Below, piece after piece: positions 585 through 35,155 of a stretch of DNA of 39,614 nt. The notes below the pieces were generated by a model. That model searched no databases, was not told where the DNA came from, and was given only the letters and a program-made list of their open reading frames with translations. This DNA comes from a virus (taxonomy: Duplodnaviria > Heunggongvirae > Uroviricota > Caudoviricetes). The stretch lies in IMG/VR virus record IMGVR_UViG_2579778871_000008; one strand, 5' to 3'. How positions within the stretch are numbered: the stretch's first letter is position 1; the number at the start of each line of letters is the position of its first letter. The position numbers and the translations under genes are program-made.

Positions 585-3142
585 CGTCCACCTCCGGAGA
601 ACAGACCACCATCGCGCATCTGCCCGGTCACAACATCCATTGCCGCCTTACGGGCTACGTCATAAACAGCCTTCAGCGCCTGTGGCCCTATCTGCCCGTT
701 CGTGCCGTCGTTGTTAATCACCACATGGTTATTCTGCTCAAACGTCCCGGACGCCTGCGACCGGCTGTCTGCCATGCTGCCCGGTGTACCGACATAACCG
801 CCGGTGGCATAGCCGCGCATCAGCCGGTAAAGATTCCCCACGCCAATCCGGCTGGTTGCCTCCTTCGTGAAGACAAACTCACCACGGTGAACAATCCCCG
901 CTGGCTCATATTTGCCGCCGGTTCCCGTAAACCCTCCGGTTGCAAAATGGAATTTCGCCGCAGCGGCCTGAATGGCTGTACCGCCTGACGCGGATGCGCC
1001 GCCACCAACAGCCCCGCCAATGGCGCTGCCGATACTCCCGACAATCCCCACCATTGCCTGCTTAAGCAGAATTTCTGTCATCATGGACAGCACGGAACGG
1101 GTGAAGCTGCGCCAGTTCTGTTCACTGCCGGTCAGCATCGCCGCCATATTCTGTGCAATACCATCAAAGGTCTGCGTGGCTGCACTTTTTACCTGCGACA
1201 TACTGTCCGTGGCGCTCTCTTCCCACTCACTCCAGCCGGACTTCAGGCCTGCCATCCAGTTCCCGCGAAGCTGGTCTTCAGCCGCCCAGGTCTTTTTCTG
1301 CTCTGACATGACGTTATTCAGCGCCAGCGGATTATCGCCATACTGTTCATTCAGGCGCTGTTCTGTGGCTTCCCGTTCTGCCTGCCGGTCAGTCAGCCCC
1401 CGGCTTTTCGCATCAATGGCGGCCCGTTTTGCCCGTTGCTGCTGTGCGAATTTATCCGCCTGCTGCGCCAGCGCATTCAGGCGCTCCTGATACGTGACCT
1501 TATCGCCAAGTGCAGCCAGCTGGCGTTTGTACTCCAGCGTCTCATCTTTATGCGCCAGCAGGGATTTCTCCTGTGCGGACAGCTGGCGACGTTGTGCCGC
1601 CTCCTCCAGTACCGCGAACTGACTCTCCGCCTTCCACAAATCCCGGCGCTGCTGGCTGATTTTCTCATTTGCTCCGGCATGCTTCTCCAGCGTCCGGAGT
1701 TCAGCCTGAAGCGTCAGCAGGGCAGCATGAGCACTGTCTTCCTGACGATCGCCCGCAGACACCTTCACGCCGGACTGTTTCGGCTTTTTCAGCGTCGCTT
1801 CATAATCCTTTTTCGCCGCCGCCATCAGCGTGTTGTAATCTGCCTGCAGGATTTTCCCGTCTTTCAGTGCCTTGTTCAGTTCTTCCTGACGGGCGGTATA
1901 TTTCTCCAGCGGCGTCTGCAGCCGTTCGTAAGCCTTCTGCGCCTCTTCGGTATATTTCAGCCGTGACGCTTCGGTATCGCTCTGCTGCTGCGCATTTTTG
2001 TCCTGTTGAGTCTGCTGCTCAGCCTTCTTTCGGGCGGCTTCAAGCGCAAGACGGGCCTTTTCACGATCATCCCAGTAACGCGCCCGCGCTTCATCGTTAA
2101 CAAAATAATCATCCTTGCGCAGATTCCAGATGTCGTCTGCTTTCTTAAACGCAGCCTCTGCCTTAATCAGCATCTCCTGCGCGGTATCAGGACGACCAAT
2201 ATCCAGCACCGCATCCCACATGGATTTGAATGCCCGCGCTGTCCTGTCTGCCCAGGTCTCCAGCGTGCCCATGTTCTCTTTCAGGCGGCGGGTCTGGTCA
2301 TCAAACCCTTTCGTTGCGGCCTCGTTCGCCGCCTGCAATGCCCCGGCTTCATCGCCGGAACGCTGCAACTGAGCAACATACGCAATCTGCTCCGCCGTCA
2401 CGTTATGGAACTGGCGTGCCATCGCCGTCAGCCCCGACGTCGGGTCTGTGGTCAGCTTCCCGAAGGCTTCAGCGACCTTGTCCACCTCCACGCCGGATGC
2501 AGAGGAGAAACGCGCCACACTCTGGCTGATGGACGCAATCTGAGCCTCACCGCTTACCCCCGCCTTAACCAGTGCGCTGAGTGACTCGCTGGTCTGGTTA
2601 AACGTCAGCCCTGCCGCCTGCCCGGCTCTGGACAGGACCAGCATACGATCTGCCGTCAGTCCCGCCTGATTGCCGGAAAGGACCAGCGTTTTGTTGAAAT
2701 CGGACAGGGTTGAGTTGCCCTGATACCAGGCATACGCCAGCGCACCGGTCGCCACCGCCAGCGAGGTGGCCCCCACCATCGGCAGGGTGATCGCACCGGC
2801 AAGCCCCCTGAACATGGGGATCATCCCGCCGAAGGAGTCCTTCACCTGCCCCCCCTGTTGCAGCAGGATCAGCCACGGACTTTGCCCGCCTGCAAGCTGC
2901 GTGGCCACGTCGGTGAACTGTGCAGGCAGCATACGCATGGCGGCTTTATACTGCCCGACGGAAATCCCCGCTTTCTGTGCAGCCAGCGCCTGTCGGCTCA
3001 GCGACTGTTCAACGACTGCCGCTGTTTTTTTCGCATCACTTTCCGTACCGGAAAAATGACGCCTGACTCTGGCCATCTGCTCGTCAAATCTGGCCGCATC
3101 CAGACTCAAATCAACGACCAGATCGCCTACCGGTTCAGCCAT
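581..3142 (-). CDS. H: tail tape measure protein H
   Basis: 853 aa (same as lambda gpH); coiled-coil Ala/Gln-rich middle and Gly-rich C-terminal region; position after G-T. Confidence 0.9.
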   Translation of the reverse strand: MAEPVGDLVVDLSLDAARFDEQMARVRRHFSGTESDAKKTAAVVEQSLSRQALAAQKAGISVGQYKAAMRMLPAQFTDVATQLAGGQSPWLILLQQGGQVKDSFGGMIPMFRGLAGAITLPMVGATSLAVATGALAYAWYQGNSTLSDFNKTLVLSGNQAGLTADRMLVLSRAGQAAGLTFNQTSESLSALVKAGVSGEAQIASISQSVARFSSASGVEVDKVAEAFGKLTTDPTSGLTAMARQFHNVTAEQIAYVAQLQRSGDEAGALQAANEAATKGFDDQTRRLKENMGTLETWADRTARAFKSMWDAVLDIGRPDTAQEMLIKAEAAFKKADDIWNLRKDDYFVNDEARARYWDDREKARLALEAARKKAEQQTQQDKNAQQQSDTEASRLKYTEEAQKAYERLQTPLEKYTARQEELNKALKDGKILQADYNTLMAAAKKDYEATLKKPKQSGVKVSAGDRQEDSAHAALLTLQAELRTLEKHAGANEKISQQRRDLWKAESQFAVLEEAAQRRQLSAQEKSLLAHKDETLEYKRQLAALGDKVTYQERLNALAQQADKFAQQQRAKRAAIDAKSRGLTDRQAEREATEQRLNEQYGDNPLALNNVMSEQKKTWAAEDQLRGNWMAGLKSGWSEWEESATDSMSQVKSAATQTFDGIAQNMAAMLTGSEQNWRSFTRSVLSMMTEILLKQAMVGIVGSIGSAIGGAVGGGASASGGTAIQAAAAKFHFATGGFTGTGGKYEPAGIVHRGEFVFTKEATSRIGVGNLYRLMRGYATGGYVGTPGSMADSRSQASGTFEQNNHVVINNDGTNGQIGPQALKAVYDVARKAAMDVVTGQMRDGGLFSGGGR

Positions 3143-26015: not shown

Positions 26016-26180
26016 TTCAAGTTTCGCTTTTTTTAGAATTCGTAAACCTTATATTTTCGCATTTTCCTGTTTTTGTCAACCAGACTAATGCAAAAACCCT
26101 CCGAAGCGGGTTAAGTGCGGGTGCATTGAGGATGCCTGACTCATCAGAGGTGGCGAGGGATTTCTCCCTCGCCGGGTCTC

Positions 26181-26336
26181 TTACTCCTCAGGTTCGTAAG
26201 CTGTGAAGACAGCGACCTCCGTCTGGCCGGTTCGGATTCGTACCTCGCAGAGGTCTTTCCTCGTTACCAGTGCCGTCACTATGACGGTTAAACAGATGAC
26301 GATCAGGGCGATTAACATCGCCTTATGCTGCTTCAT
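26181..26336 (-). CDS. hok: Hok/Gef-family type I toxin (HokD/RelF-like)
   Basis: 51 aa MKQHKAMLIALIVICLTVIVTALVTRKDLCEVRIRTGQTEVAVFTAYEPEE, a hallmark Hok/Gef sequence; ORF-track entry 26181-26393 is an in-frame upstream extension. Confidence 0.85.
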   Translation of the reverse strand: MKQHKAMLIALIVICLTVIVTALVTRKDLCEVRIRTGQTEVAVFTAYEPEE

Positions 26337-27361
26337 AGCCTGCTTCTCCTTGCCTTTCGGCACGTGAGAGGCTAACCTACGTGTGCAAGTCATAGATATG
26401 GCCTCAGATTAATGTTAGGCGTCTTGCAGGACGCGTAATGTTAACTGGGGCTTTTCTCTATCTGCCGTTGGTATTCATGCCTGAGACAGATAGCCTCAAG
26501 CACCCGCAGCAATCCTACTTAACTCCCGTCACCTCGCCAATATAAAATCAATCAGAAAGGCGATCCATAAGAACAACAGCAAGACAATAAATTGCCATTA
26601 CAGCCGCAATAGCGAGCGCACATTTGAGAACCAGCACGACAACCTCCTGTATTGGACGTACACCAGTCCTGATAAATATGAGGCTGTCTCATCATTGATG
26701 AGATACAACTATTGGGAATAGTTTCTGTGATTTTGTTCTGTAGAAATGGAACACAACAACCAGTCACCACCAGCACTTCTTTAAAAACGCCAAGTCCGAC
26801 GCAAGCTAACCTTCTAGTCCGCTTTGAACGATGAGCGGAAATTGACATATCTGTTAAAGTGAATGGTTCGTTTTGCAGGGATACTTACACTGCCCCCTGT
26901 CAAAATGATATAGCGAAGAATAAGAGTTCTTCTTCAAGAACAACAAAAAGAGATCATTCCAGCATGCTGGAAACGCAGCGTGTAATGATGACGGATAAGA
27001 CTCTGGCGCATTCCATGACAGCGGCAAAGGCCATAGCAGCCAATCAGATAGCTAGAATAGCCGCGAGGAAGGAAAGCCACCAGCAAAATGAAGCCATCGA
27101 GCGCTTGCGCGTAAATACGCGAATCTTAAACGGCGCAGAGATGCAGATTTACCCGCAACTGGCGACTTCAGCAATGAACCGCATACAGACCGAGTAAGTG
27201 ATGCGCTGGATGCCGTATTGAAAAGACAGCCAGAAAAGCGGTATTGGGTTCCAGAGGGTTTTAGAGGTTAAAGCGCTCACAAATCTAGCTAATTTGTAAC
27301 CATCTTTAAACGTTTATGATATTGTTAAATAAAACTAAAACTACCACGGCATGATTTACCG

Positions 27362-28060
27362 ATGAAAAAAGAACTTGAAACCATACTGCCTGAGTTTGGT
27401 GAGGCAATTCGCCCTTACGTTTATAGTTACGTAACAGCAAACAAAAATGCCAATGCCAAGCACGTCCTGTTTATGGCTGGTTCGCCTGCTGCAGGTAAAA
27501 CCGAGCTCTTAAATCGTCTTTTAGAACAACATGGCATCACAAACATTGTTCGAATTGATGCTGATGATTTTCGCTGGTGGTTCCCCTACTACAATGAAGA
27601 GAACTCTGTGGACTATCAGAGACCTGCCTCCAGAATGGTCGATTTTATCTACAAAAAAGCGCTATCTGAAGGCTATCCCATTGTTATGGACTCTACTTTC
27701 TCCAGTATAGGTATTGCGGAGAGAAACTTTGATCTGGCCCTGAAGGCTGGTTATCAGGTAGCACTGAATTACGTCTATTTTGATCCGGCTTACGCGTGGG
27801 TTTTTGCCCAAGCCCGCTCTCGTAAGGTTCCGTTAGAGGTTCTTAAAGCGAACTTTTTCAAGAGCAGAGAGACCATTGAACATATGCTCGCGAAATATGC
27901 AGGCCTATTTACACTCAATGTTTATCATCGACGGGAAGATCCTGAAAATGATGGTCAGTTCGTGGTCGACTATACTCCTAACGTGACCCTTGAAAACTGG
28001 ACTACCTCCCATAGCTGCCCATATTCAGACGTTAGCGATCTAGCGCATTTAGGTGTATAA
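27362..28060 (+). CDS. P-loop kinase, zeta-toxin/AAA_33-like
   Basis: 232 aa; Walker A FMAGSPAAGKTELLNRLL near the N-terminus and Walker B-like hhhhD (PIVMDSTF). Confidence 0.65.
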   Translation: MKKELETILPEFGEAIRPYVYSYVTANKNANAKHVLFMAGSPAAGKTELLNRLLEQHGITNIVRIDADDFRWWFPYYNEENSVDYQRPASRMVDFIYKKALSEGYPIVMDSTFSSIGIAERNFDLALKAGYQVALNYVYFDPAYAWVFAQARSRKVPLEVLKANFFKSRETIEHMLAKYAGLFTLNVYHRREDPENDGQFVVDYTPNVTLENWTTSHSCPYSDVSDLAHLGV

Positions 28061-28079
28061 TAAGTGTCCTATTTAAGGA

Positions 28080-28712
28080 GTGTATATGTCTGTTAAAACT
28101 GAAGCCATTAAACCAGCTGCTGAAATTTCGTTGTTCGATGCATTCGGACCTAACGTGAGCGAGCGGGTACAAGCCATCAACCGGAAGGCCGCTGAGCTTT
28201 CTATGGCTGATATGGCTCAGGTAATGGACGTGACATTATCGTCTAGGAAGAAACTGGAAGTAACTGCTGAGAGCAAATATATTCTCGATTTGCCTCAATG
28301 GCTAGAAGTCAATGCACGGAAATCTGGAGTTTCTTTTGACATGAAAGCATACACTTCTGCTGAAGTTAACAAGATGCATGTTCCTGACTTTCGCCAGTTC
28401 CTTCCTGTAGGTGCAAATATGTTGCATACCTATTCACCAATCGGTAAAACGGGCCTGCAAGGAATTCATGATTATTTAATCGGTGCTGTTTCATCTAAAC
28501 TTCATCACTTGCAAGGTGTCGGAGTTGATGAGGGCACGTTTAAAATACTTATCCGCTATGAAGATGCTAAAACGGGTGCTCCCCGCAATGATATAGTTGA
28601 AGCTGAGTCGACAATTAGCCCAAGTTCTTTCACTAGGCTCAAGCCCCGTGTGAAAAAACTTCGCAGAAAAGGTCATGAAATGGCGATGCATGCACTAATT
28701 GCCAAAAAATAG
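28080..28712 (+). CDS. hypothetical protein co-transcribed with the P-loop kinase
   Basis: 210 aa ORF 20 nt after the kinase; AAGGAG SD before the internal ATG at 28086; followed by a strong terminator. Confidence 0.5.
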   Translation: MYMSVKTEAIKPAAEISLFDAFGPNVSERVQAINRKAAELSMADMAQVMDVTLSSRKKLEVTAESKYILDLPQWLEVNARKSGVSFDMKAYTSAEVNKMHVPDFRQFLPVGANMLHTYSPIGKTGLQGIHDYLIGAVSSKLHHLQGVGVDEGTFKILIRYEDAKTGAPRNDIVEAESTISPSSFTRLKPRVKKLRRKGHEMAMHALIAKK

Positions 28713-34077: not shown

Positions 34078-34611
34078 TCACTCAATCTCACCGCTATAGG
34101 CATTCCATCTGAGCATGAGTGCACGCCAGAAAATATCGTTTATGTGCAAAACACAGTATGGATTTTCGTCGGGAAGGAGTTGCCCTTCCATGGGGAGCAA
34201 AATATTAGCAGATACCAGTTTTTTTATATCAGAATCATTGCGTACAGCATGGATCACAGGATAGTTCCTCGATAATGCCGTAATAAGAATTTTTTTCTGA
34301 CCCGCAGTCAAGGAATCGATAACTGCATTGATATGACTGATTATTTTTTGTTCTCTTGTATTGTTCCGGTGACTTCGCCAGATCTTACGAAGAAATAAAG
34401 CTAAACGTTGGAGATTTATAGCCAGCACAAAAGAAAAGGCAAAAACGAATACCGGGTAAATATAAGGAATGCTGATTTTGTCTTGAACATACTCCGGTAC
34501 AGAATCAGGCATAAAGAGCAATATCAAAACAAAGATAATAAGCATATACATAAGGCGCTCTAAGGGTTCGTTACTGAATAACTTGCTCAACAAGCCGAAT
34601 ACATCAGGCAT
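34078..34611 (-). CDS. sieB: superinfection exclusion protein B (SieB-like)
   Basis: 177 aa membrane protein (LIIFVLILLFM, VFVFAFSFVLAINL) opposite to the early leftward genes, between the repressor and kil-like gene. Confidence 0.65.
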   Translation of the reverse strand: MPDVFGLLSKLFSNEPLERLMYMLIIFVLILLFMPDSVPEYVQDKISIPYIYPVFVFAFSFVLAINLQRLALFLRKIWRSHRNNTREQKIISHINAVIDSLTAGQKKILITALSRNYPVIHAVRNDSDIKKLVSANILLPMEGQLLPDENPYCVLHINDIFWRALMLRWNAYSGEIE

Positions 34612-35155
34612 ATTAATAACTCTCTACTGTAAGGGTATTAAAATGTTATCACAGACTCTCGCTGTAGGGGTATAGCCGAGACCACCGAGCCTGAAGTGGT
34701 AAAAAGACAGGCACACAACACGAAAGCGCACGGCGAGGCTGTTAGTTCATAAATGGTCTGTCGTTAAATTTACGTCGACCGTGCGCTTCCGGTTGTGGCA
34801 CTCCGCGAAATGGCGCGGCGGTAAGTATGGCGGGGTTATTCCTTCCCCCGTTGAGGACACCGGGTTGTCAGGTTGACCATACGCTTAAGTGACAACCCCG
34901 CTGCAACGCCCTCTGTTATCATTTTTCTGGTGACGTTTGGCGGTATCAGTTTTACTCCGTGACTGCTCTGCCGCCCTTTTTAAAGTGAATTTTGTGATGT
35001 GGTGAATGCGGCTGAGCGCACGCGGAACAGTTAAAACCAAAAACAGTGAAATGGGTGGATTCTCTGTATCCGGCGTTAATTGTTAACTGGTTAACGTCAC
35101 CTGGAGGCACCAGGCACCGCATCAACAAAGTTCATTTGTAAAAATGGAGATAATT

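What the first reader, a model, noticed from the sequence alone, without database searches (positions are those of the whole stretch)
26150..26520. hok/gef-family type I toxin locus embedded in the prophage nin region
The 51-aa Hok-type peptide is unmistakable. The upstream leader has stable hairpins (ctatctg...cagatag and gcgtc...gacgc) and there is a 3' hairpin (ggcgaggga...tccctcgcc), consistent with the folded hok mRNA. An antisense Sok-like RNA is expected on the plus strand across the 5' end of hok but cannot be delimited by eye.
Basis: partly seen in the sequence, partly recalled or inferred. Interest (0 to 1): 0.45.

Follow-up and report, generated by a model that had tools for sequence, protein, structure and literature searches.

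The report
Complete hok/mok/sok toxin-antitoxin locus in prophage
This is an ordinary, fully intact copy of the well-known hok/sok "host-killing" toxin-antitoxin cassette (hokD/hokW type) in the early region of a lambda-like E. coli prophage; near-identical copies occur in most E. coli genomes, so it is real but not new.

Summary
Window 26181-26336 (-) encodes a 51-aa Hok toxin (Pfam HOK_GEF E=1.2e-23; RefSeq calls it HokD). All three hairpins it named exist.

With tools I could delimit the whole unit, about 26092-26540:
- a weak hok promoter, with mRNA start at about 26505
- an in-frame 70-codon mok leader ORF with its own ribosome-binding site
- a convergent Sok antisense RNA gene on the + strand, about 26385-26458, placed by transfer of the annotated sokW and sokC coordinates
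- a terminator at 26095-26112

Covariation across 35 loci from several enterobacterial genera supports the long-range and local helices. The Rfam "sok" model hits at 105 bits, but it is oriented on the hok-mRNA strand. The locus is 91% identical to hokW-sokW of Stx2 phage Sp5, an experimentally validated type I system. It is also the intact form of K-12 hokD, whose leader and sok were replaced by relBE. A conserved TadA editing site (TACG, Tyr47) is present.

Verdict: already known. Interest is low.

The parts
26512..26540 (-). Candidate hok/mok promoter: -35 TTGGCG (26540-26535), 17-nt spacer, -10 TAGGAT (26517-26512). Predicted +1 at about 26505.
   Evidence: Read from the sequence. A TAnnAT-like hexamer sits at the same distance from the conserved GGG in 22 loci from several genera. 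It scores 8/12 to consensus, below the threshold of the promoter scan, which fits the weak hok promoter known from R1. Transcription was not tested.
26092..26505 (-). Full-length mok-hok mRNA, about 410 nt.
   Evidence: The Rfam model starts at 26505. Cross-genus homology begins at about 26519-26505 and ends at about 26150-26116. The terminator-like site is at 26112-26095. The fold has z=-8.6.
26494..26505 (-). tac (translational activator) element at the 5' end, GGGUGCUUGAGG.
   Evidence: It pairs with 26119-26131 in the full-length MFE. Inverted repeats I8 and I1 support this. Pair col 11-416 is UA in 22 sequences and CG in 10. It can alternatively pair with 26479-26487 as the metastable hairpin, 96.8% paired over 35 loci, or with ucb at 26447-26453, 99.6% paired but invariant.
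26458..26493 (-).
   Evidence: Helix 3 is 95.8% paired, and 3 of its pairs show changes on both sides.
26446..26453 (-). ucb / anti-SD box (AAGCCCCA).
   Evidence: It pairs with the mok SD (26402-26406) in the full-length MFE. AAAGCCCC is invariant or nearly invariant in 35 loci.
26402..26450 (-). sokT hairpin of the hok mRNA, the sense copy of the Sok stem. It includes the gcgtc/gacgc cap at 26419-26434.
   Evidence: Helix 6: 69-109 is AU 24 / GC 10, 70-108 is GC 15 / AU 8, and 73-104 is GC 22 / AU 11.
26181..26393 (-). mok leader ORF: 70 codons, in frame with hok, SD GAGG at 26405-26402.
   Evidence: ORF list. It maps onto the annotated mokW and mokC. An ATG lies 57-58 nt upstream of the hok ATG, with an upstream GAGG, in 31/35 loci. 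Of these, 25 are in frame and 6 are in the +1 frame.
26350..26378 (+). Candidate Sok promoter: -35 TTGCCT (26350-26355), 17-nt spacer, -10 TAACCT (26373-26378).
   Evidence: Read from the sequence. Both hexamers are identical to those of the hokW locus, and the -35 is conserved in position in all 35 loci. It places +1 at 26385, which is the annotated 5' end of sokW and sokC after coordinate transfer. It falls below the scan threshold. Transcription was not tested.
26385..26458 (+). Sok antisense RNA (about 71-77 nt): a single-stranded 5' tail of about 10 nt over the mok AUG, a long hairpin, then UUUUCUCU.
   Evidence: Annotated sokW maps to 26385-26455 and sokC to 26385-26461. The fold is -33.4 kcal/mol with z=-5.0.
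26181..26336 (-). hok toxin ORF: 51 aa, SD AGGAG at 26350-26346.
   Evidence: Pfam HOK_GEF E=1.2e-23. It is 155/156 nt identical to K-12 hokD and 46/51 aa identical to HokW.
26195..26198 (-). TACG motif at Tyr47, the TadA A-to-I editing site (edited A = 26197) that would recode Tyr47 to Cys.
   Evidence: TACG(AA) is invariant in 35/35 loci, and all carry a hard-coded Cys29/30. The A has P(paired) <= 0.01. Editing of this position in K-12 hokC, hokD and hokE is published (PMC5630033, PMC12214031). Editing of this copy was not tested.
26198..26205 (-). Distal arm of the long-range helix that sequesters the hok start region (26334-26341).
   Evidence: Full-length MFE. Helix 9 is 90% paired, with 4 pairs changed on both sides.
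26152..26173 (-). 3'-UTR hairpin GGCGAGGGA-GAAA-UCCCUCGCC.
   Evidence: I9. Helices 17-18 are 96-97% paired and include compensatory changes.
26116..26131 (-). fbi (fold-back inhibitory) element.
   Evidence: It pairs with the 5' end. Helix 2 supports it. Per-sequence duplex energies exceed shuffles in most loci.
26095..26112 (-). Intrinsic terminator-like hairpin followed by UUUUU.

Best explanation
This is a complete hok/mok/sok type I toxin-antitoxin cassette of the hokD/hokW subtype, in the nin-equivalent region of a lambdoid prophage.

Shown from the sequence: a weak promoter would give a mok-hok mRNA of about 410 nt (about 26505 to 26092). Its 5' tac element pairs with the 3' fbi element. 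In that closed form the mok ribosome-binding site is held by the invariant GCCCC box (ucb), and the hok start region is held in a long-range helix.

Inferred by homology with plasmid R1 hok/sok and with hokW-sokW: slow 3' trimming removes fbi, and the 5' end re-pairs with ucb. That frees the mok ribosome-binding site and exposes the Sok target. Translation of mok is needed for translation of hok. A short, unstable Sok RNA made from a convergent promoter (+ strand, about 26385-26458) pairs with the mok start region. This blocks translation and leads to RNase III cleavage. When Sok is no longer replenished, Hok is made, inserts into the inner membrane and kills or lyses the cell. TadA editing of the TACG Tyr47 codon to Cys probably tunes toxicity.

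The biological role in this prophage is not established. The best-supported one, by analogy with hokW-sokW, is help with lysis and phage release on induction. Prophage retention or abortive infection remain possible.
For: - Toxin family: Pfam and PHROG hits.
- Leader: Rfam RF01794 at 105.3 bits against a gathering score of 59.
- 5'-3' closure: inverted repeats and MFE with z=-8.6.
- Covariation on 35 loci from Escherichia, Kluyvera, Photorhabdus, Pantoea, Erwinia and others: 83.7% of cells paired against 38-45% when slid, and 48 pairs with double changes against 17-24.
- Alternative helices are conserved.
- The tac/ucb open form costs 3-5 kcal/mol in the trimmed RNA and 18.8 in the full-length RNA.
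- mok start and SD are conserved in 31/35 loci whatever the frame.
- Sok coordinates transfer from two independently annotated loci and agree with an independent fold.
- The promoter hexamers are identical to those of hokW-sokW.
- hokW-sokW, 91% identical in nucleotides, is experimentally a type I TA. sokW RNA was detected and is lost on mitomycin C treatment, and HokW is toxic and goes to the inner membrane (PMC8621323).
- The R1 mechanism is from PMC9841398.
- TACG editing is from PMC5630033 and PMC12214031.
Against: - No expression data exist for this copy.
- Neither promoter reaches the threshold of the consensus scan.
- The MFE of the 3'-trimmed RNA gives the metastable 5' hairpin with the mok SD still sequestered, not the open tac/ucb form. 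The activating switch is therefore not reproduced by thermodynamics alone.
- tac/ucb is invariant, so it has no covariation support.
- Some chromosomal hok loci (hokA, hokB, hokC) were reported not to mediate post-segregational killing (cited in bioRxiv 10.1101/2025.08.07.668861).
- RNase III and Hfq are only partly required for sokW action.
Confidence: 0.93

Rival explanations
1. The locus is structurally complete but physiologically silent. Like several chromosomal hok loci, it is transcribed but never releases enough Hok to kill, and persists only by hitch-hiking on the prophage.
For: Chromosomal hokA, hokB and hokC loci were reported unable to mediate post-segregational killing or to be activated by rifampicin (cited in bioRxiv 10.1101/2025.08.07.668861). 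The trimmed RNA's MFE keeps the mok SD closed. K-12 hokD mRNA is only 6% edited at the Tyr codon (PMC12214031).
Against: All regulatory elements are intact and under visible purifying and compensatory selection across genera. The 91%-identical hokW-sokW is active and has a measurable phenotype (PMC8621323). 42 of 45 tested Hok homologs were toxic.
Confidence: 0.2
2. It is an orphan or decayed toxin gene like K-12 hokD (relF), without a working antitoxin or leader.
For: RefSeq names the gene hokD and annotates no Sok or mok. The ORF is 99.4% identical to K-12 hokD.
Against: In K-12 hokD, homology begins only at window 26350, and the leader, mok start and sok are replaced by relE. The window keeps all of these. 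The Rfam leader model hits the window at 105 bits but gives no hit at K-12 hokD.
Confidence: 0.02
3. The plus-strand hairpin is only the mirror image of hok-mRNA structure, and no separate antisense RNA is made.
For: A hairpin in one strand always gives a hairpin in the other. The Rfam 'sok' model is really the hok strand. The promoter scan did not flag a Sok promoter.
Against: The -35 and -10 hexamers lie at the correct spacing before the annotated sokW and sokC 5' ends and are identical to hokW's. A U-tract follows the hairpin on the plus strand only. sokW RNA was detected by northern blot from the 91%-identical locus, and promoter mutations there unleashed toxicity (PMC8621323).
Confidence: 0.04

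Closest known systems
hokW-mokW-sokW of Stx2 phage Sp5 / VT2-Sakai (AP000422.1; PMC8621323)
   Same: It is 91.4% identical in nucleotides over the unit, and Hok is 46/51 aa identical. mok is in frame and 70 codons long. It has the same 18-19-nt extension of the Sok hairpin and identical Sok promoter hexamers. Both are phage-borne.
   Different: The position in the phage differs. hokW sits near one end of the Sp5 prophage among unrelated genes. Here the locus is in the nin-equivalent early region between the replication genes and Q. The sequence downstream of fbi, including the terminator, and the promoter-upstream sequence are also different.
E. coli K-12 hokD (relF) in the Qin prophage
   Same: The ORF is 155/156 nt identical. 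The 3' UTR, fbi and terminator are conserved at 85%. The prophage neighbourhood is of the same type, upstream of DUF968/ydfU and Q.
   Different: K-12 lacks everything upstream of window 26350: tac, ucb, sokT, the mok start and the Sok gene. These are replaced by relBE, and there is no Rfam leader hit. The window copy is the intact form.
E. coli K-12 hokC(gef)/mokC/sokC
   Same: The architecture is the same, with an in-frame mok. sokC maps to the same window interval. The ORF is 85% identical in nucleotides.
   Different: The leader is only 62% identical, the 18-19-nt insertion in the Sok hairpin is absent, and the 3' UTR has diverged.
hok/sok (parB) of plasmid R1
   Same: The regulatory logic is the same: tac/fbi closure, ucb sequestering the mok SD, a 70-codon mok, a Sok antisense to the mok translation start, and 3' processing (PMC9841398). 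Each of these elements can be identified here.
   Different: The toxin is distant. HokW, which is 90% identical to this Hok, shares 44% identity with R1 Hok (PMC8621323). R1 is plasmid-borne with a plasmid-stabilising role, whereas this locus is prophage-borne and its role is not established.

Membership tests
hok/sok (Hok/Gef) type I toxin-antitoxin family | Small (~50 aa) Hok/Gef-family membrane toxin | tested here: met
   Pfam PF01848 E=1.2e-23, 82.9 bits against a cut-off of 22. PHROG 251 E=4.7e-32. It has an N-terminal hydrophobic helix and the conserved RKDLCEV motif. The NCBIfam Hok subfamily model scored 48.6 bits, below its 73-bit cut-off.
hok/sok (Hok/Gef) type I toxin-antitoxin family | Structured hok-mRNA leader (Rfam RF01794 covariance model) | tested here: met
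   105.3 bits against a gathering score of 59, with the full model 1-157 matched at 26505-26331 (-). The model lies on the hok-mRNA strand, as shown on the annotated K-12 and VT2-Sakai loci.
hok/sok (Hok/Gef) type I toxin-antitoxin family | Long-range 5' (tac) to 3' (fbi) pairing that closes the full-length mRNA | tested here: met
   9/9 plus extended complementarity. It is present in the MFE, z=-8.6. A compensatory pair is UA 22 / CG 10. Duplex energies exceed shuffles in most of 46 loci.
hok/sok (Hok/Gef) type I toxin-antitoxin family | Overlapping mok leader ORF whose ribosome-binding site is sequestered by ucb | tested here: met
   A 70-codon ORF starts at ATG 26393, with GAGG 8 nt upstream. 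It is conserved in 31/35 loci. The SD pairs with 26446-26450 in the MFE.
hok/sok (Hok/Gef) type I toxin-antitoxin family | Cis-encoded antisense Sok RNA gene with its own promoter and terminator, complementary to the mok translation initiation region | tested here: inconclusive
   The sequence features are all present and coincide with the annotated sokW and sokC. Transcription itself cannot be tested with these tools, and the promoter is below the scan threshold.
hok/sok (Hok/Gef) type I toxin-antitoxin family | 3' processing followed by refolding to a translatable, Sok-accessible form (tac/ucb stem) | tested here: inconclusive
   tac/ucb complementarity is 99.6% conserved. The open form costs 3-5 kcal/mol in trimmed RNA and 18.8 in full-length RNA. 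The MFE of the trimmed RNA is nevertheless the metastable hairpin. Processing is not testable here.
hok/sok (Hok/Gef) type I toxin-antitoxin family | Toxicity of Hok, neutralisation by Sok, and RNase III cleavage of the duplex | not testable with these tools
   This is shown only for the 90%-identical HokW and its sokW (PMC8621323).
TadA-edited hok mRNAs (Tyr-to-Cys recoding) | Tyr encoded by TAC within a TACG motif in a loop, opposite a hard-coded Cys | tested here: met
   TACG lies at 26198-26195. It is found in 35/35 loci, all with Cys29/30. The edited A has P(paired) <= 0.01. Actual editing is not testable here. K-12 hokD is 6% edited (PMC12214031).

The most novel reading that the evidence does not exclude
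Unlike hokW in Sp5, this cassette lies co-directionally inside the delayed-early (pR-type) transcription unit just upstream of Q, with the Sok promoter facing that transcription. Antiterminated read-through after induction could therefore act as the trigger in two ways. It could silence Sok by transcriptional collision. It could also produce 5'-extended hok transcripts that cannot form the tac/fbi lock. That would turn Hok into an induction-timed lysis helper, and it would answer the open question in PMC8621323 of what removes sokW RNA on induction. A weaker variant is that the conserved, unannotated 29-aa membrane peptide gene immediately upstream (26548-26637) is co-transcribed with hok and works with it.
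Probability: 0.1. Interest if true: 0.4.

Novelty: already known. Interest (0 to 1): 0.1.

Why it matters
It matters mostly for annotation. RefSeq labels only the toxin ORF ('hokD') and omits mok, Sok and the regulatory RNA elements. The Rfam family called 'sok' actually marks the hok-mRNA strand, so automated pipelines can place the antitoxin on the wrong strand. The window also shows what the intact ancestor of the truncated K-12 hokD/relF locus looks like. It adds nothing new mechanistically. hok genes are known to be enriched in prophages (bioRxiv 10.1101/2025.08.07.668861), and the nearly identical hokW-sokW has been characterised.

Tried and rejected
- The consensus promoter scan found neither the hok nor the Sok promoter. 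It found only a chance-level plus-strand site at 26519-26548. The promoters were therefore assigned by position and conservation, not by the scan.
- Folding 3'-trimmed RNAs with four different end points did not give the open tac/ucb conformation as the MFE. Only a constrained fold did.
- The crude 5'/3' duplex test was not significant for hokC-type loci. Their 3' ends differ or carry insertions, so they contribute little to the fbi covariation.
- I asked whether the upstream 29-aa ORF is part of the hok unit. I rejected this because other full-length hok loci (L005, L014) have different upstream sequence.
- I asked whether that ORF equals K-12 ynfS. It does not.
- One literature query failed on syntax.
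- The apparent conflict between the DicF position and the MS 119-7 annotation was resolved. The window lacks two IS3 copies that are present in that genome.
- No structure prediction was run, because the family assignment is unambiguous from sequence.

Full report
**Observation.**
The region was read on both strands. The minus strand carries a 51-codon ORF at 26181-26336, which is extended in frame to 70 codons from an ATG at 26393. The 51-aa product matches Pfam HOK_GEF (E=1.2e-23, 82.9 bits, cut-off 22) and PHROG 251 'MokW-like host killing' (E=4.7e-32).
- ctatctg/cagatag at 26458-26464 / 26487-26493
- gcgtc/gacgc at 26419-26423 / 26430-26434
- ggcgaggga/tccctcgcc at 26152-26160 / 26165-26173, 9/9 complementary

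An Rfam scan of the whole window gave two hits above the gathering score. One is RF01794 'sok' at 26331-26505, 105.3 bits, E=4.5e-23. The other is DicF at 34925-34976.

**Origin and context.**
The 481 bases around the finding are 100% identical to E. coli MS 119-7. Related sequence occurs in 4934 of 5426 complete E. coli genomes, and 3926 of them carry a full-length copy. RefSeq annotates the toxin as hokD. The window is collinear with MS 119-7 at 99.97-100% identity but lacks two IS3 insertions, so it comes from a close relative.

The annotation shows a lambdoid prophage whose early-right genes are on the minus strand. In order these are cro-like, YdaT, a replication-type HTH protein and DUF977. 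Next comes a cassette on the opposite strand that includes a zeta-toxin-family gene. After it come hokD, a 216-aa hypothetical (PHROG 5786), an HTH protein, DUF968, RusA, Q and the holins. The 'nin region' description is therefore correct.

**Extent of the unit.**
Inverted-repeat analysis found that 26500-26508 is perfectly complementary to 26116-26124, and that 26482-26499 is 78% complementary to 26126-26143.

Folding 26508-26092 as RNA gave -175.4 kcal/mol, against -125.7 +/- 5.8 for shuffles (z=-8.6). In this fold the two ends are paired. A terminator-like hairpin with a U-run lies at 26112-26095.

BLAST against 53 loci retrieved from one genome per species shows that cross-genus homology starts abruptly at window about 26519-26505 and ends at about 26150-26116. 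These limits coincide with the predicted transcript ends.

**Sok.**
On the plus strand, 26383-26460 folds into an unpaired tail of about 10 nt, a long hairpin and UUUUCUCU (-33.4 kcal/mol, z=-5.0). Two independently annotated relatives allowed coordinate transfer. VT2-Sakai annotates mokW, hokW and a sokW antisense RNA. K-12 annotates mokC, hokC and sokC. After alignment, sokW maps to window 26385-26455 and sokC to 26385-26461, both on the plus strand. The mok and hok ORFs map exactly onto 26181-26393 and 26181-26336.

Upstream lies TTGCCT (26350-26355), a 17-nt spacer and TAACCT (26373-26378), which places +1 at 26385. Both hexamers are identical in the hokW locus, and the -35 is positionally invariant in 35 loci. 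Sok therefore covers the mok start codon (26391-26393) and ribosome-binding site (26402-26405), not the hok ORF.

The consensus promoter scan flagged neither this promoter nor the hok promoter. The hok promoter is TTGGCG-17-TAGGAT at 26540-26512, and a TAnnAT hexamer sits at the same offset in all loci examined. Both assignments rest on position and conservation, not on measurement.

**Orientation of the Rfam model.**
The hit lies on the minus strand, the model begins at the conserved GGGUGCUUGAGG, and it ends at the hok AUG. On K-12 the same model hits 902-1054 (-), the hokC strand, while the annotated sokC is 953-1011 (+). On VT2-Sakai it hits the hokW strand, opposite to sokW. K-12 hokD gives no hit. 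So RF01794 models the hok-mRNA leader.

**Structure conservation.**
I aligned 35 non-identical units (A2). They come from Escherichia, Shigella, Kluyvera, Pseudocitrobacter, Citrobacter, Photorhabdus, Pantoea, Erwinia and Kalamiella. Counting the window's MFE pairs on this alignment gave 83.7% of cells paired, against 38-45% when partners are slid. It also gave 48 pairs with changes on both sides against 17-24 when slid, and 0 of 500 shuffles reached the observed covariation score. The structure was derived from one of the aligned sequences, which favours it in the slid control, so the compensatory pairs are the stronger evidence:
- tac/fbi: pair 11-416 is UA 22 / CG 10
- leader hairpin: 22-55 is AU 22 / UA 6 / GU 5
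- Sok/sokT hairpin: 69-109 is AU 24 / GC 10, 70-108 is GC 15 / AU 8, and 73-104 is GC 22 / AU 11
- long-range helix pairing the hok start region (26334-26341) with 26198-26205: four compensatory pairs

The alternative 5' metastable hairpin (26493-26501 with 26479-26487) is 96.8% paired, against 25-50% slid. The tac/ucb stem is 99.6% paired but invariant, so it is uninformative for covariation. The one variable tac position (26502, U or C) is the bulge in tac/ucb, and it covaries with fbi. That is what the dual-partner model predicts.

**The switch.**
In the full-length fold, the mok ribosome-binding site pairs with the invariant GCCCC box at 26446-26450. Trimmed RNAs ending at 26145-26160 fold, by MFE, into the metastable hairpin with the site still closed. 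Forcing tac/ucb costs 3.1-5.3 kcal/mol in trimmed RNA and 18.8 kcal/mol in full-length RNA. Removal of fbi therefore makes the open form accessible, but thermodynamic prediction alone does not reproduce activation. This step is inferred from R1 (PMC9841398).

**mok.**
An ATG lies 57-58 nt upstream of the hok ATG, preceded by GAGG, in 31 of 35 loci. It is in frame with hok in 25 and in the +1 frame in 6. This agrees with the published view that mok translation matters rather than the Mok product (PMC9841398).

**Relation to known loci.**
The unit is 91.4% identical to hokW-sokW, and Hok is 46/51 identical to HokW. [quoted passage not shown]
- HokW is toxic and localises to the inner membrane.
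- sokW expressed from its own promoter neutralises it, with partial dependence on RNase III and Hfq.
- sokW RNA disappears after mitomycin C treatment in a RecA-dependent way.
- Deleting the locus halves phage release (PMC8621323).

The hok ORF is 155/156 nt identical to K-12 hokD. In K-12, however, homology starts only at window 26350, and the leader, mok start and Sok gene are replaced by relBE. The window therefore holds the intact form of the locus that is truncated in K-12. hok genes are reported to be enriched about four-fold in prophages (bioRxiv 10.1101/2025.08.07.668861).

**An additional known layer.**
The Tyr47 codon is TAC followed by G (26198-26195). TACGAA is invariant in all 35 loci, and every one also has the hard-coded Cys29/30. 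The edited A (26197) is predicted to be unpaired, in a loop reading UUACGAA. TadA-mediated A-to-I editing of exactly this position in K-12 hokC, hokD and hokE is published. It recodes Tyr to the Cys that partners the other Cys (PMC5630033, PMC12214031). Editing of this copy is inferred, not shown.

**Verdict.**
The finding is real and correctly interpreted. The tools extend it to a full parts list and correct its boundaries. The locus belongs to a thoroughly described family, and a near-identical member has been characterised experimentally. Novelty: already known. Interest: 0.1.

The only speculative angle is positional. Here the cassette lies co-directionally in the early-right operon, with the Sok promoter opposing that transcription. 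This could couple Hok release to antiterminated read-through on induction. Nothing I ran tests this.

Noticed in passing
window 26548-26637 (-): There is an unannotated 29-codon ORF, MLVLKCALAIAAVMAIYCLAVVLMDRLSD. It has a GTG start and a perfect AGGAGG 5 nt upstream, and it ends just before the hok -35. The DNA is present in 1576 of 5426 E. coli genomes and is never annotated. The ORF and its SD are intact in four copies that are 94-96% identical, with mostly synonymous or conservative changes. It has no Pfam, NCBIfam or PHROG hit. It is not part of the hok unit, because other full-length hok loci lack it. It is probably a real small membrane protein gene.
   Followed up: partly
window 26964-28712 (+), and loci L058-L060: The slot immediately upstream of the small ORF and hok holds different accessory cargo in different genomes. 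Here it is a zeta-toxin-family gene cassette on the opposite strand. In L059 it is a RelA/SpoT-domain gene, and in L058 a SIR2-family gene. This looks like a variable moron or defence-gene hotspot next to hok.
   Followed up: no
window 34925-34976 (+): A DicF antisense sRNA matches the full Rfam model (76.7 bits, E=2e-15). It lies just upstream of a dicB remnant and kil, as in Qin- and Rac-type prophages.
   Followed up: no
window ~15837-15841 and ~34335-34340: Relative to E. coli MS 119-7, the window lacks two IS3-family insertions of about 1.3 kb each, with short overlaps at the junctions consistent with target-site duplications. It is otherwise 99.97-100% identical. The window therefore comes from a close relative, not from that assembly.
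   Followed up: partly
Rfam RF01794, on window 26331-26505 (-), L004 902-1054 (-) and L002 1521-1695 (+): The Rfam family named 'sok antitoxin' is oriented on the hok-mRNA (toxin) strand. It is opposite to the annotated sokC and sokW, and it spans the 157-nt leader up to the hok AUG. Annotation pipelines that use it could place the antitoxin on the wrong strand.
   Followed up: yes
L021, L027, L057: hok loci that are 90-94% identical in nucleotides to the E. coli type sit on very short contigs (275, 431 and 2995 bases). The contigs are labelled Acinetobacter idrijaensis, Xanthomonas pisi and a 'Candidatus Scatousia' MAG. This is most likely E. coli contamination of those assemblies.
   Followed up: no
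L030, L035, L047, L048, L049: Several Kluyvera-like and Photorhabdus loci show a second hok unit within about 500-700 nt of the first (two BLAST segments per locus). These are tandem hok 'islets', as described in bioRxiv 10.1101/2025.08.07.668861.
   Followed up: no
L045 (Shigella flexneri SFBU0723): This hokC-type copy has a frameshifted toxin ORF (MKQHKAMIVAPDRHLYHRRSGGAGG...) and a damaged leader hairpin. It is a decaying copy.
   Followed up: no
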